Below, in pieces: positions 11,829-13,793 of a stretch of DNA of 64,000 nucleotides (within the stretch, counting starts at the first letter, position 1; the number at the start of each line of letters is the position of its first letter). The position numbers were made by a program, and so were the translations under genes. Source of the DNA: Armatimonadota bacterium (GTDB lineage Bacteria > Armatimonadota > DTGP01 > JAKQQT01); NCBI GenBank assembly GCA_029564025.1, contig JAKQQT010000075.1, positions 13,185 through 77,184 on the forward strand, written 5' to 3'. The notes under the pieces are model-generated. The model was not told where the DNA came from. It did no database searches and saw only the letters and a program-made list of their open reading frames with translations.

Positions 11829-13793
11829 ATGTGGGAAAAATTCACGGAAAGAACCAGACGAATTATATACCGGGCCCAGGAGGAGGCGCACCGGTACGGA
11901 CACCCCAATGTGGGGACCGAGCACCTGCTCCTGGGTATTCTGGACGAACCCGATTCCATGGCGGCACGGGTACTGGAGACGCTGGCCGGAAGCCTGGACA
12001 GCATCCGATTGAGTACCGTCAGCGGCCTGCCCGCCGGCTCCAAAAATCCGGCCACCAAGATCGGCCGAACCCGAAGCGCCCGCCGCGTGCTGGAACTGGC
12101 CGAGGACGAAGCAACACAGCAAGGTGCCGATCATATTGCCAGCGGGCACCTGCTGGTCGGCCTGGTGCGGTGCCGGGAAGGCGGAGCCGCTCATATCCTT
12201 GAGAACTGCTCGGTGGTTCTGCCGGCCGTGCGCGCCGAGATTACGGCGGAACTGACCGGCCAGAACGGCTCCAACCGCGGAGAAGACGCCCGCCTGGACG
12301 AACACTCCACGCTGAAGTCATTACCGCCTCTTGTTCGAAGCGCGCTGGGCCACACGTGGCGCCATATGTCGTACCGCTCCCGAAGGGCTATCGAAGCCGC
12401 CTTGAGCGAAGCCGCGCAACGAGGCGACACACTGGTCACCCCGGACTATCTGGTCCTGGGCGCTCTGAAGGATTCCGACAGCGCCGTTGCGCGCGTTTTC
12501 CGCCGAATGGAAGTCGATGTCAAAGCACTTGTCGATGACATCAAGGCTTCCCTGAAAAGTCACGGCGAACCGCGCAAGGTCGACCGGCATATGGAACTGC
12601 GCGCCACCACATGCGCCGCGATATCAGACGCCGAAATGGCCGCGCGCGTCGACGGCACCGGAGTGATCGGAACGGCGCATCTCGTGATGGGCGTGCTGAC
12701 ACTCAAGGACTCCAACGCCGCCGCCGTACTGAAAAAGCACCAGGTTAATCTCGCGACCCTGCGCTCTCTGTACATCGAATTGCACGAGAACGACAGCAAG
12801 GCATCGGCGGATCCCGACCAGTTGTCCAAACTCACGCTTTCGCAGATGATCTCGCGAAGCCGCCTGAAGGGCAAGCACCTTTTGCGCATCAGCGACCTGA
12901 CGCCGGCAGACGTCGCTCTCGTGTTCGCCGTAACCGACAAACTGAAAAGCCGCAAGGGACGCGGCGGAGCGGACGAAGCCTCTGCCCTGCACCGCGGCAA
13001 GACACTGGCGCTTGTTTTCCAGAAACCGTCGCTCAGAACGCGCGTGACATTCGAAATCGGTATGAACCAGTTGGGCGGCCATGCCCTTCACCTTGGCCCG
13101 GACGAAATCGGCGTCGGCGAGCGCGAATCCCCGGCGGATGTCGCCCGCAACCTGGAACGCTGGGTGCACGGCATCGTTGCGCGGACCTTCAAACATTCCT
13201 TGGTTGAGGAACTCGCCGCCAATTCCACCATACCGGTCATCAACGGCCTCAGCGACCTGGAGCATCCGTGCCAGGCTCTGGCGGACCTGTACACCCTGCG
13301 CGAACGCAAAGGCGCCGTCAAGGGACTGACGCTGATGTACATCGGAGACGGCAACAACGTGTGCCGCTCGCTCATGGAACTCTGCGCGCTCACCGGAACG
13401 AATCTTCGCATCGCCTCTCCGGAAGGCTACGAGCCCGACGCAACAGCCGTGGCGGCTTTGAAACCGGTGTTTGAGGCGGCAGGCGCCGAGCTATGGGTGG
13501 GCCGCGATCCCATCGAGGCCGCCAAGGGCTCCGATGCGGTTTACACCGATGTCTGGACCAGCATGGGCCAGGAAGAGGAAGCCGCAATTCGCCATGCGGC
13601 CTTCCAGCCGTACCAGTTGAACATGAAGGTCGTCAACGCGGCGAATCCGGAAGCCATTGTCCTTCACTGCCAGCCGGCGCACCGTGAAGAGGAGATTACC
13701 TCCGAGGCGATGGACTGCCCGACCAGCGCGATCTTCGACCAGGCCGAGAACCGCATGCACGTTCAAAAAGCGCTGATGGCGCTTATGCTGTAA
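11829..13793 (+). CDS. argF: Fusion protein: two tandem Clp N-terminal (Clp_N) modules + ornithine carbamoyltransferase
   Basis: aa 1-145 form a Clp_N double repeat: [38 protein letters not shown] closely mirrors the clpC N-terminus in this window. aa ~182-320 form a second, more diverged double repeat (VTPDYLVLGAL, IGTAHLVMGVL). aa ~346-654 are an OTCase with SLRTR, HPCQALADL, DVWTSMG and HCQP motifs. Confidence 0.85.
   Translation: MWEKFTERTRRIIYRAQEEAHRYGHPNVGTEHLLLGILDEPDSMAARVLETLAGSLDSIRLSTVSGLPAGSKNPATKIGRTRSARRVLELAEDEATQQGADHIASGHLLVGLVRCREGGAAHILENCSVVLPAVRAEITAELTGQNGSNRGEDARLDEHSTLKSLPPLVRSALGHTWRHMSYRSRRAIEAALSEAAQRGDTLVTPDYLVLGALKDSDSAVARVFRRMEVDVKALVDDIKASLKSHGEPRKVDRHMELRATTCAAISDAEMAARVDGTGVIGTAHLVMGVLTLKDSNAAAVLKKHQVNLATLRSLYIELHENDSKASADPDQLSKLTLSQMISRSRLKGKHLLRISDLTPADVALVFAVTDKLKSRKGRGGADEASALHRGKTLALVFQKPSLRTRVTFEIGMNQLGGHALHLGPDEIGVGERESPADVARNLERWVHGIVARTFKHSLVEELAANSTIPVINGLSDLEHPCQALADLYTLRERKGAVKGLTLMYIGDGNNVCRSLMELCALTGTNLRIASPEGYEPDATAVAALKPVFEAAGAELWVGRDPIEAAKGSDAVYTDVWTSMGQEEEAAIRHAAFQPYQLNMKVVNAANPEAIVLHCQPAHREEEITSEAMDCPTSAIFDQAENRMHVQKALMALML

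What the first reader, a model, noticed from the sequence alone, without database searches (positions are those of the whole stretch)
11829..13793. Ornithine carbamoyltransferase fused to two tandem Clp N-terminal (pArg-reader type) modules
A single 654-aa ORF joins about 340 aa of Clp_N repeats to a full OTCase. The first repeat ([39 protein letters not shown]) is almost motif-for-motif the N-terminus of the clpC in this window ([39 protein letters not shown]). In ClpC the Clp_N domain is the docking site for adaptors. As I recall from the B. subtilis work, it also binds phospho-arginine tags through the Glu of each GTEH motif (E32/E106). In this fusion only repeat 1 keeps GTEH. The equivalent positions in repeats 2-4 read ASGH, TPDY and GTAH. 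This suggests one retained and three diverged ligand sites. The same window encodes the pArg writer McsB, its activator McsA, and ClpC. The fusion sits inside the arginine operon, on the enzyme that commits ornithine toward arginine. Possible roles are sensing of arginine, phospho-arginine or a related guanidinium ligand, docking to McsB/ClpC for regulated turnover, or oligomer control. I do not know of a described Clp_N-transcarbamylase architecture.
Basis: partly seen in the sequence, partly recalled or inferred. Interest (0 to 1): 0.85.

Follow-up and report, generated by a model that had tools for sequence, protein, structure and literature searches.

The report
OTCase fused to ClpC N-domains
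The arginine-pathway enzyme ornithine carbamoyltransferase here carries two copies of the small docking domain that the ClpC protease normally uses to read phospho-arginine degradation tags; this is a diverged member of an undescribed family so far named only from Armatimonadota, and it hints at a direct link between protein quality control and arginine synthesis.

Summary
ORF 11829-13793 (+) encodes 654 aa: two ClpC-type N-domain modules (M1 aa 1-145, M2 aa 167-326) followed by a complete, catalytically intact OTCase. It occupies the argF slot of argB-fpg-argD-[argF]-GNAT-argG-...-argH.

It is not an assembly chimera. The identical protein occurs on at least 23 independently assembled contigs.

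It is not unique. All 120 best database relatives carry Clp_N plus OTCase, and every named one is an Armatimonadota or Chthonomonadaceae MAG. In most relatives a single N-module is 50-82% identical to this window's real ClpC NTD and keeps both phospho-arginine (pArg) pocket signatures, with about 95% retention of E31, T105 and E106.

The window's clade is a derived form. The module is duplicated, only pocket 1 of M1 keeps T6/GTEH (16/16), and the other three pockets are lost. Both modules are still under purifying selection (dN/dS 0.09 and 0.13).

mcsB-clpC is present in the window and conserved in the phylum. No paper describing the fusion was found.

Best reading, inferred and untested: the modules are flexibly tethered pArg/adaptor-docking modules that couple OTCase to the McsB-ClpC system. 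The nearest precedent is mycobacterial ClpC2.

Verdict: a new variant of known kinds, of moderate to high interest.

The parts
11829..13793 (+). Whole fusion gene (654 aa): ClpC-NTD module 1, linker, ClpC-NTD module 2, linker, OTCase. An SD-like AAGGA lies about 12 nt upstream of the ATG.
   Evidence: identical product on at least 23 contigs
11829..12263 (+). Module 1 (aa 1-145), a ClpC-type N domain made of two Clp_N repeats. It is 45% identical to the window's ClpC NTD.
   Evidence: 8 helices in the AF2 model; dN/dS 0.09
11913..11924 (+). G29-T30-E31-H32, the only retained pArg-pocket signature. Together with T6 it is invariant in the clade (GTEH 16/16).
   Evidence: E32/E106 are the pArg-site glutamates per PMC12583610
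12138..12149 (+). A104-S105-G106-H107, the position of the second pocket (GTEH in ClpC). The Glu is lost: G/D/A in 16/16 clade members.
12264..12326 (+). M1-M2 linker (aa 146-166). It is predicted disordered (pLDDT below 50 for aa 145-161) but contains clade-conserved GED (151-153) and LPPLVR (164-169).
12327..12806 (+). Module 2 (aa 167-326), a strongly diverged ClpC-type N domain (about 31% identical to ClpC NTDs) with an extra N-terminal helix. Both pocket signatures are lost: TPDY at 204-207 and GTAH at 281-284.
   Evidence: Pfam/NCBIfam; AF2 of M2 alone pLDDT 89, pTM 0.81; Foldseek best hits ClpC1-NTD TM 0.88-0.89 and ClpC2 0.81-0.83; dN/dS 0.13
12807..12872 (+). M2-OTCase connector (aa 327-348). 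It contains a conserved Met340, but no SD-like sequence lies upstream, so there is no evidence for an internal start.
12873..13304 (+). OTCase carbamoyl-phosphate-binding domain (aa 349-492), with invariant S401-L-R-T-R405 and H479-P-C-Q482.
13320..13787 (+). OTCase ornithine-binding domain (aa 498-653), with D574xxxS578-M-G580. The motif at H613-C-Q-P616 reads HCQP in this clade where relatives have HCLP.
   Evidence: fold TM 0.93 to P. furiosus OTCase 1a1s
8881..11814 (+). Upstream operon genes: argB (8881-9747), fpg (9750-10556), argD (10588-11814).
   Evidence: same order
13806..18798 (+). Downstream genes: GNAT acetyltransferase (13806-14312), argG (14309-15499), M1 peptidase (15517-17376), argH (17392-18798).
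27361..31440 (-). mcsA-like gene (31036-31440), mcsB (29972-31039) and clpC (27361-29844). These are the pArg writer and the canonical reader in the same organism.
   Evidence: the operon is conserved in Armatimonadota

Best explanation
WHAT IT IS (shown). This is the biosynthetic OTCase (ArgF) of an Armatimonadota bacterium. It carries an N-terminal extension of about 345 aa made of two ClpC-type N-domains. It belongs to a family, named so far only from Armatimonadota, in which a ClpC NTD was fused to ArgF through a flexible linker.
- In typical members one NTD stays close to the real ClpC NTD and keeps both pArg-pocket signatures.
- In the window's clade the module was duplicated.
- M1 keeps one pocket signature (T6 plus G29-T-E-H32). 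M1's second pocket and both pockets of M2 have lost theirs.
- Both modules remain under purifying selection.

HOW IT MOST LIKELY WORKS (inferred, untested).
- The N-modules are tethered recruitment or input modules, not rigid allosteric domains.
- Through the retained pocket, and probably through other ClpC-NTD surfaces, they bind what the ClpC NTD binds: pArg-marked proteins, including autophosphorylated McsB.
- OTCases are normally trimers (own knowledge), so the enzyme would display three such readers.
- This physically couples ArgF to the McsA/McsB-ClpC(P) system.
- The most probable outcome is stress- or starvation-dependent sequestration, or Arg-phosphorylation and ClpCP-dependent turnover, of the enzyme that turns ornithine into citrulline on the way to arginine.
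- M2 has lost its pockets but is conserved. It has probably been re-purposed as a spacer, a partner-binding module or a self-association module.
For: Architecture and catalytic competence:
- Domain calls and OTCase equivalog score.
- Catalytic motifs invariant in the family alignment.
- OTCase fold TM 0.93.
- Always at the argF slot of the arg operon.

Family:
- 120/120 top hits have Clp_N plus OTCase.
- About 13 representative clusters at 50% identity.
- Names are Armatimonadota or Chthonomonadaceae.
- 0 of 80 OTCase loci from other phyla are fused.

Reader-like NTD in single-module relatives (n=92):
- 50-82% identical to the window's ClpC NTD.
- T6 87/92, E31 89/92, T105 89/92, E106 91/92, K85 83/92.
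- Mean 70% identity to 120 Armatimonadota ClpC NTDs.

Window clade:
- GTEH 16/16 and T6 14/14 in M1; the other three signatures are lost.
- dN/dS is 0.09 for M1, 0.13 for M2 and 0.06 for the OTCase part.
- M2's fold matches the ClpC1 NTD at TM 0.89.

Tether model:
- Linkers are 7-176 aa, rich in P/S/Q/R and poor in hydrophobic residues.
- The M1-M2 linker is disordered and whole-protein pTM is only 0.60.
- Copy number varies from 1 to 3, and other domains are inserted in some variants.

pArg system present:
- mcsB and clpC are in the window.
- The operon is conserved in the phylum, including in 'bacterium HR16', which also has a fusion.

Precedents:
- ClpC2 is a ClpC1-NTD homologue in a non-AAA+ protein. 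It keeps one pArg site and acts as a pArg sensor with KD about 5 uM (PMC13345244).
- The NTD binds McsA/McsB, and pArg acts on ClpC through the E32/E106 pockets (PMC12583610).
- ClpCP removes metabolic enzymes, including ArgH, in B. subtilis forespores (PMC11960778).
Against: - There is no biochemical evidence at all. pArg binding is inferred from signature residues.
- The TEH motif is part of the generic Clp_N repeat consensus. ClpA, for example, has TVEH without binding pArg (own knowledge). Retention in M1 is therefore weak positive evidence.
- The window protein has lost three of four signatures, so its link to pArg is weaker than in typical family members.
- A whole folded NTD is an expensive way to make a degron.
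- Some variants carry an MshEN (c-di-GMP-type) domain next to the NTD. That fits a 'signal-input or sensor' reading at least as well as a degradation reading.
- The proximity of mcsAB-clpC to the arg operon in this window is not conserved.
- Co-occurrence of the fusion with mcsB was seen only in this window's organism and, by source name, in HR16. It was not surveyed genome by genome.
- Whether these genomes have a second, plain argF is unknown.
Confidence: 0.4

Rival explanations
1. pArg (or related ligand) sensor that regulates catalysis or assembly. Ligand binding to the N-module changes NTD-NTD or NTD-OTCase contacts, and so changes the oligomeric state or activity of the trimer. This parallels ClpC2, where pArg breaks a dimer interface. 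No degradation is involved.
For: - The ClpC2 precedent.
- Variants add another ligand-binding input domain (MshEN) at the same place. This suggests the N-terminus of this ArgF is a platform for signal inputs.
- Clade-conserved motifs lie in the 'linker' (GED, LPPLVR) and an extra helix precedes M2.
- M2 is conserved without pockets, which is compatible with an interface role.
- Fused regulatory chains exist in the transcarbamylase family, for example the T. maritima ATCase (PMC4581275).
Against: - Linkers across the family vary hugely in length and sequence (7-176 aa), and module copy number varies from 1 to 3. That is hard to reconcile with a defined allosteric interface.
- Whole-protein pTM is 0.60, with no confident inter-domain packing.
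- No PAE or multimer model could be obtained.
Confidence: 0.25
2. Decoy or sponge. The abundant trimeric enzyme displays ClpC-NTD mimics that compete with ClpC for pArg-substrates, for adaptors, or for NTD-targeting natural products. This buffers ClpCP activity, as the ClpC2 'sponge' does. The enzyme serves only as a scaffold.
For: - Canonical fused NTDs mimic ClpC NTDs closely, up to 92% identity. A competitor would be expected to do so.
- Pure tandem arrays of 3-11 NTD-like modules exist, and most keep both Glu residues (103/140). Multivalent free-standing NTD binders are therefore a real class.
- ClpC2 sequesters cyclomarin and binds pArg.
Against: - It does not explain why the partner is specifically ArgF and why the fusion is fixed at the operon copy.
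- The window clade lost three of four pockets, yet the modules remain constrained.
- Decoy level would be slaved to arginine-operon expression, which has no obvious logic.
Confidence: 0.12
3. In the window's clade the modules no longer have anything to do with pArg. They are a structural appendage inherited from the ancestral fusion, serving solubility, thermostability, higher-order assembly or localisation.
For: - Three of four pocket signatures are lost.
- R5, a McsB target in B. subtilis ClpC (own knowledge), is K in 13/14 clade M1s.
- M1 is only 41% and M2 only 31% identical to ClpC NTDs.
- The TEH motif is generic to Clp_N repeats (own knowledge).
Against: T6 and GTEH in M1 are invariant in all 16 clade members, while the equivalent positions in the other three repeats drifted freely. 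That pattern argues for specific selection on that one pocket. dN/dS of 0.09 on M1 is as low as for the enzyme.
Confidence: 0.15
4. Artefact: an assembly chimera or a frameshift joins a small Clp_N gene to argF.
For: None found.
Against: - The identical ORF occurs on at least 23 independent contigs from different projects.
- Orthologues at 40-96% identity have the same architecture.
- GC content is smooth across the junction.
- Purifying selection acts across all parts.
Confidence: 0.01

Closest known systems
N-terminal domain of ClpC/ClpC1 (Hsp100 AAA+ unfoldase), the pArg reader and adaptor dock (PDB 5hbn, 2y1r, 6pbs)
   Same: - Same fold: M1 scores E 6e-27 by sequence and M2 reaches TM 0.88-0.89.
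- Double Clp_N repeat.
- M1 keeps the T6 plus GTEH signature of one pocket.
- Typical family members keep both pockets and are 50-82% identical to the window's ClpC NTD.
   Different: - No AAA+ modules, M-domain or ClpP loop.
- Attached to a metabolic enzyme.
- In the window, three of four pocket signatures are lost and the module is duplicated.
Mycobacterial/actinobacterial ClpC2 (PDB 8ad9, 8b9o; PMC13345244)
   Same: - A ClpC-NTD homologue living outside an AAA+ protein.
- Only one pArg site retained.
- Shown to bind pArg (KD about 5 uM) and to act as a sensor or sponge.
- It is the best functional analogue.
   Different: - ClpC2 pairs the NTD-like domain (at its C-terminus) with a DNA-binding region and regulates transcription.
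- Here the partner is OTCase, the modules are N-terminal and duplicated, and the phylum is different.
- This is not an orthologue: M2's structural match to ClpC2 is TM 0.81-0.83 at 22-23% identity.
Anabolic ornithine carbamoyltransferase ArgF (TIGR00658; PDB 1a1s, 4nf2, 7nnf)
   Same: - aa 346-654 score above the equivalog cutoff.
- All catalytic motifs are present.
- 41-46% identity and TM 0.9 or better to solved OTCases.
- Located in the arg operon.
   Different: - About 345-aa N-terminal extension.
- HCQP instead of HCLP in this clade.
Stand-alone or multi-copy Clp_N proteins (plant ClpT1/2, PDB 4y0b; 'Clp protease N-terminal domain-containing protein', e.g. Paractinoplanes WP_020510240.1)
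   Same: Clp_N modules without an ATPase. Arrays of 2-11 modules exist.
   Different: These have no enzyme partner, and most are uncharacterised. ClpT acts on ClpP core assembly in plastids (own knowledge).
Transcarbamylases with attached regulatory parts (ATCase PyrB-PyrI; fused PyrBI of Thermotoga maritima; PMC4581275)
   Same: A transcarbamylase trimer equipped with an extra regulatory polypeptide or domain.
   Different: The regulatory domain is unrelated (a nucleotide-binding, zinc-containing domain) and forms a rigid allosteric assembly. No Clp-type domain is described in that family review.

Membership tests
Ornithine carbamoyltransferase (ArgF, TIGR00658) | Profile score above the curated equivalog cutoff | tested here: met
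   364.1 bits against a cutoff of 280.85 over aa 349-654
Ornithine carbamoyltransferase (ArgF, TIGR00658) | Carbamoyl-phosphate motifs S-x-R-T-R and H-P-x-Q; ornithine motifs D-x-x-x-S-M-G and H-C-L-P | tested here: met
   S401 L R T R405, H479 P C Q482 and D574..S578 M G580 are invariant in a 67-sequence alignment. H613 C614 Q615 P616 has L replaced by Q, a substitution conserved in the clade.
Ornithine carbamoyltransferase (ArgF, TIGR00658) | Two-domain transcarbamylase fold | tested here: met
   AF2 model against 1a1s: TM 0.93, rmsd 2.1 A, 46% identity
Ornithine carbamoyltransferase (ArgF, TIGR00658) | Catalytic activity and trimeric state | not testable with these tools
   Needs an enzyme assay and SEC-MALS
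Clp N-terminal (Clp_N / Clp R) domain | Two Pfam PF02861 repeats forming an 8-helix domain of about 145 aa | tested here: met
   4 Clp_N stretches, E 3e-40. There are 8 helices in M1, and 8 plus an extra N-terminal helix in M2. M2 alone matches ClpC1-NTD at TM 0.88-0.89.
pArg-reading ClpC NTD (as in B. subtilis ClpC, 5hbn) | Pocket 1 signature (Bs T7, T31, E32) | tested here: met
   M1 has T6, T30 and E31, invariant in the clade. M2 has S, P and D, so the signature is not met there.
pArg-reading ClpC NTD (as in B. subtilis ClpC, 5hbn) | Pocket 2 signature (Bs T81, K85, T105, E106) | tested here: not met
   M1 has T81, R85, S105 and G106. M2 has R, C, T and A. The signature is met in 89-91 of 92 canonical relatives for T105 and E106 (K85 83/92, T81 76/92).
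pArg-reading ClpC NTD (as in B. subtilis ClpC, 5hbn) | Measured binding of pArg or pArg-proteins | not testable with these tools
   ITC/MST is needed
Hsp100/Clp AAA+ unfoldase (ClpC/ClpB/ClpA) | AAA+ D1/D2 modules following the N domain | tested here: not met
   No AAA family hit in the fusion. The window's true ClpC has them.
ClpC2-type non-proteolytic NTD paralogue | NTD-like domain joined to an N-terminal DNA-binding/oligomerisation region; autoregulated repressor | tested here: not met
   The partner here is OTCase and no HTH was found. The resemblance is functional (one retained site), not orthology.

The most novel reading that the evidence does not exclude
Arginine biosynthesis is wired directly to arginine phosphorylation at the chemical level. 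N-omega-phospho-arginine (P-NH-C(=NH)-NH-(CH2)3-...) is isosteric with PALO (P-CH2-C(=O)-NH-(CH2)3-...), the classical bisubstrate inhibitor of OTCase. This comparison rests on my own chemical knowledge; a PALO complex (1oth) is among the structural matches. Free pArg or pArg-peptides released by ClpCP could therefore inhibit OTCase. On this reading, the fused ClpC-NTD is a dedicated pArg antenna on the enzyme most vulnerable to pArg. It would capture, sense or hand over pArg so that arginine synthesis responds to, or is protected from, the cell's pArg load. More broadly, ClpC-NTD-like modules fused to OTCase, TIR or alpha/beta-hydrolase domains, and standing alone in arrays of up to 11 copies, would form an unrecognised class of portable pArg-reader domains.
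Probability: 0.1. Interest if true: 0.85.

Novelty: new variant of a known kind. Interest (0 to 1): 0.62.

Why it matters
pArg tagging by McsB and its reading by the ClpC NTD is an active field (BacPROTACs, ClpC1 antibiotics, ClpC2). Outside the unfoldase itself, the only characterised ClpC-NTD-type pArg reader that came up in this literature search is ClpC2.

The enzyme belongs to the arginine pathway itself, which makes the link more pointed.

The family provides a natural series for experiments:
- one, two or three modules;
- intact versus degenerate pockets;
- variable linkers.

It also points to a wider, unstudied set of portable ClpC-NTD modules (arrays, TIR fusions, hydrolase fusions).

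If the modules turn out to be only structural, the finding reduces to an unusual but ordinary domain fusion in an under-studied phylum.

Tried and rejected
1. Assembly chimera or frameshift: rejected.
2. 'Unique architecture': rejected. It is a family.
3. Species-genome scan for taxonomic spread:
   - It served only as a negative control, with 0 of 80 fused.
   - L022 and L059 looked like long matches but are separate Clp ATPase genes of about 877 aa.
4. Functional linkage from gene proximity to mcsAB-clpC: rejected, because it is not conserved in L001/L002.
5. Internal translation start at Met340 giving a free OTCase: no SD-like sequence, not supported.
6. Recurrent recent copying from clpC:
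   - Not supported for the window (M1 is 45% identical to its own ClpC NTD) or for HR16 (75%).
   - It cannot be excluded for some relatives, since 22/92 have a ClpC NTD as nearest neighbour, with identity up to 92%.
   - No fixed fusion-specific columns were found.
7. Literature: no paper on a Clp_N-OTCase fusion and none on pArg as an OTCase ligand. Trentini 2016 and Gerth 2008 are not held, so the exact pocket residue list rests on E32/E106/T7/K85 as cited in PMC12583610 plus my own recall.
8. Other Clp_N modules in the window: only the fusion and clpC.
9. Inter-domain contacts could not be assessed, because no PAE, coordinates or multimer prediction were available.
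Full report
**1. 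The observation**

The window has an ATG-initiated ORF at 11829..13793 (+) of 654 aa. An SD-like AAGGA lies about 12 nt upstream.

Pfam finds four Clp_N repeat stretches (E 3e-40), OTCace_N (aa 349-492) and OTCace (aa 498-653). NCBIfam places aa 349-654 above the curated cutoff of the OTCase equivalog TIGR00658 (364 against 281 bits). It matches aa 5-145 and aa 183-327 to the N-domains of ClpB/ClpA-type proteins.

The neighbours are:
- argB, fpg and argD upstream;
- a GNAT gene, argG, an M1 peptidase and argH downstream.

clpC (27361-29844, -) and mcsB (29972-31039, -) are confirmed. A 134-aa protein with four CxxC motifs overlaps the mcsB start. It is McsA-like only by position and motifs, because no Pfam model passes threshold. 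A profile search of all six frames finds no other Clp-N module in the window.

**2. Not an artefact**

The identical 654-aa product is indexed in 27 blocks of the collection, of which 23 contigs were read. These include two NCBI MAG assemblies and a JGI metagenome, all with the same gene order. A 96%-identical orthologue (L089) has the same architecture.

Between the window gene and that orthologue, dN/dS is:
- 0.09 for module 1;
- 0.13 for module 2;
- 0.06 for the OTCase part.

The diverged modules are therefore maintained by selection.

**3. Anatomy**

*Module 1 (aa 1-145).* M1 is 45% identical to the window's own ClpC NTD. Its best solved relatives are ClpC1/ClpC NTDs (E 6e-27).

*Module 2 (aa 167-326).* M2 is much more diverged, at about 31% identity to ClpC NTDs. 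Modelled alone it is confident (pLDDT 89, pTM 0.81). Its best structural matches are ClpC1 NTDs (TM 0.88-0.89, rmsd 1.6-2.0 A, 17% identity), followed by ClpC2 and 5hbn.

*Whole protein.* The model has pLDDT 88.5 but pTM 0.60. The M1-M2 linker is disordered (aa 145-161), so the domain arrangement is not fixed. The OTCase part superposes on P. furiosus OTCase with TM 0.93. The catalytic motifs S-x-R-T-R, HPxQ, DxxxSMG and HCxP are invariant in the family alignment. The clade has HCQP where relatives have HCLP.

**4. The pockets**

E32 and E106 (B. subtilis and S. aureus numbering) are the glutamates of the two pArg pockets. T7 and K85 are further functional NTD positions (PMC12583610). My recalled B. 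subtilis NTD sequence is identical to PDB 2y1r/5hbn, which anchors the numbering.

Residues at the pocket positions, from alignment A3. In the first repeat, window residue numbers are one lower than B. subtilis numbers (Bs T7 = window T6; Bs T31/E32 = window T30/E31); in the second repeat they coincide.

| Module | T7 | GTEH (30-33) | T81 | K85 | GTEH (104-107) |
|---|---|---|---|---|---|
| M1 | T | GTEH | T | R | ASGH |
| M2 | S | TPDY | R | C | GTAH |

Across the 16 members of the window's clade:
- M1 keeps T6 in 14/14 (two fragments lack it) and GTEH in 16/16.
- Position 106 is G, D or A.
- M2 has P at position 30 in 16/16 and a non-acidic residue at position 106 in 16/16.

Caveat (own knowledge): the T-E-H motif is part of the general Clp_N repeat consensus. 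ClpA has TVEH, for example. Retention is therefore necessary but not sufficient for pArg binding. The contrast between one frozen pocket and three that drifted is the informative part.

**5. The family**

All 120 best hits among 5.8 billion proteins carry Clp_N plus the OTCase domains. Every named one is an Armatimonadota or Armatimonadetes MAG, or 'bacterium HR16'. Further names are Chthonomonadaceae.

Dissection of the hits:
- The window's clade of about 18 sequences (55-96% identity) has M1+M2.
- About 100 others have one N-module that is 50-82% identical to this window's true ClpC NTD.
- Some have two or three such modules (P0022-28, P0017, P0020, P0021).
- Some have an inserted T2SSE-N-like or MshEN domain.

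In 92 single-module members the pocket signatures are almost invariant: T6 87, E31 89, T105 89, E106 91, K85 83.

Identity statistics:
- Armatimonadota ClpC NTDs (n=120) are 88% identical to one another.
- Fused NTDs are 70% identical to those ClpC NTDs but only 61% identical to one another.

This is star-like divergence from a ClpC-like ancestor. The fused copies evolve faster than ClpC's own NTD but keep the pocket residues.

An exhaustive profile search of 1.84 billion 50%-representatives finds only about 13 representative clusters of fusions before plain OTCases of about 300 aa begin. The family is diverse at 90% clustering but phylogenetically compact.

A scan of species genomes returned 80 ordinary OTCase loci from many phyla, none of them fused. 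These include Candidatus Fervidibacterota (L043).

In two complete-size genomes the fusion is again the operon argF: argC-argJ...argB-argD-[fusion]-argG-argH. mcsB-clpC is not nearby in those genomes, so proximity in this window is coincidental. The mcsB-clpC operon itself is conserved in Armatimonadota, with the same upstream class-IV aminotransferase gene as in the window. HR16, which also has a fusion, is among them.

**6. Linkers**

Linkers between the last NTD and the OTCase range from 7 to 176 aa (median 42). They are enriched in P, S, Q and R and depleted in hydrophobic residues. Long-linker members share a short motif (SQRMxPPxGRSxLxDVLGETR) just before the enzyme.

Variable linkers, variable copy number and inserted domains all argue for tethered binding modules rather than a fixed allosteric interface.

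**7. Mechanism**

*Shown:* a catalytically competent ArgF with ClpC-NTD-derived modules, in an organism and phylum that have McsB and ClpC.

*Inferred:*
- The modules bind what ClpC NTDs bind. That means pArg-marked proteins, including autophosphorylated McsB, and possibly adaptors.
- A trimeric OTCase would then be a trivalent client or partner of the pArg system.
- The most probable outcome is conditional sequestration, or Arg-phosphorylation and ClpCP-dependent removal, of ArgF.

Supporting background:
- The NTD is the binding site for McsA/McsB and pArg.
- ClpCP clears metabolic enzymes, including ArgH, in B. subtilis forespores.
- Starvation-induced Clp-dependent down-regulation of metabolic enzymes in B. 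subtilis. This is my own recall of Gerth et al. 2008. The title is seen, but the paper is not held.

Rivals:
- A ClpC2-like sensor that changes OTCase assembly or activity. ClpC2 is the precedent, and the MshEN variants support an 'input domain' view.
- A decoy or sponge.
- In this clade, a purely structural appendage.

I put the recruitment or turnover reading at about 0.4, the sensor reading at about 0.25, and the rest lower.

**8. Comparison and novelty**

The parts are known: ArgF and the ClpC NTD. The idea of a ClpC-NTD paralogue acting outside an unfoldase has one characterised precedent, ClpC2.

No paper on a Clp_N-OTCase fusion was found. The 2015 transcarbamylase family review does not mention one. 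Databases call these proteins simply 'ornithine carbamoyltransferase'.

I therefore rate it a new variant of known kinds. The window protein is a derived, partly degenerate member of that variant.

**9. A speculative but testable chemical link**

N-omega-phospho-arginine is isosteric with PALO, the bisubstrate OTCase inhibitor. This is my own chemical knowledge; a PALO complex (1oth) appears.

If free pArg inhibits OTCase, fusing a pArg reader to precisely this enzyme would make mechanistic sense. No literature on this was found.

**10. By-product**

ClpC-NTD-like modules also occur in other settings:
- as pure tandem arrays of 3-11 copies;
- fused to a TIR domain;
- fused to an alpha/beta-hydrolase.

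Most array modules keep both glutamates (103/140). This suggests a broader class of portable reader modules.

Noticed in passing
proteins P0246 (1762 aa), P0256, P0251, P0243, P0249 etc. (not in the window): Many proteins are pure tandem arrays of 3-11 ClpC-NTD-like modules with no ATPase. 103 of 140 modules keep both pocket glutamates. One is from Paractinoplanes globisporus (WP_020510240.1), annotated only as 'Clp protease N-terminal domain-containing protein'.
   Followed up: partly
P0266 (773 aa) and P0330 (726 aa): ClpC-NTD-like modules are fused to other effectors: four modules plus a C-terminal TIR domain, and three modules plus an alpha/beta-hydrolase. This suggests the NTD is a portable sensor or recruitment module.
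   Followed up: partly
P0247 (Chthonomonadaceae MAG), P0052, P0075, P0097; Some OTCase fusions carry an extra domain between the NTD and the OTCase. It is MshEN (a c-di-GMP-binding type, own knowledge) in one case, and the N-terminal part of the T2SSE ATPase profile in the others.
   Followed up: partly
long-linker relatives (e.g. P0056, P0073, P0077, P0078, P0084); window aa 337-345: A conserved short motif...SQRMxPPxGRSxLxDVLGETR, lies immediately before the OTCase domain. The window clade has a related 'LSQMISRSR'. Its function is unknown (docking site, Arg-phosphorylation site, or relic of the ancestral start).
   Followed up: partly
window 13671-13682 (aa 613-616): The OTCase motif HCLP reads HCQP in the window's clade (Q conserved in at least 90% of members), while other family members keep HCLP.
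   Followed up: no
window 12279-12335 (aa 151-169): The otherwise disordered M1-M2 linker contains clade-invariant GED (151-153) and LPPLVR (164-169). The latter leads into an extra helix that precedes module 2.
   Followed up: no
window 13806-14312 (+): A 168-aa GNAT acetyltransferase gene is wedged between argF and argG, overlapping the argG start by 4 nt. It may be a short single-domain N-acetylglutamate synthase like M. tuberculosis Rv2747 (own knowledge). It is conserved in the close relatives' loci.
   Followed up: no
window 9750-10556 (+) and 15517-17376 (+): A formamidopyrimidine-DNA glycosylase gene (fpg) sits between argB and argD, and an M1-family peptidase gene between argG and argH. 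These are unrelated insertions inside the arg gene cluster. Other Armatimonadota carry toxin-antitoxin or IS200-type (Y1_Tnp) genes at comparable places.
   Followed up: no
L086 3516-4847 (HR16) and L087 3470-4849: In some Armatimonadota the ATP:guanido phosphotransferase (McsB) gene upstream of clpC encodes 443-459 aa, against 355 aa in the window, and no separate small upstream ORF is present. This suggests a McsA-McsB fusion.
   Followed up: no
L002 19696-21590: The gyrA-type gene in a 4.2-Mb Armatimonadota genome carries intein domains (Hint_2 / Intein_splicing hits interrupting DNA_topoisoIV).
   Followed up: no
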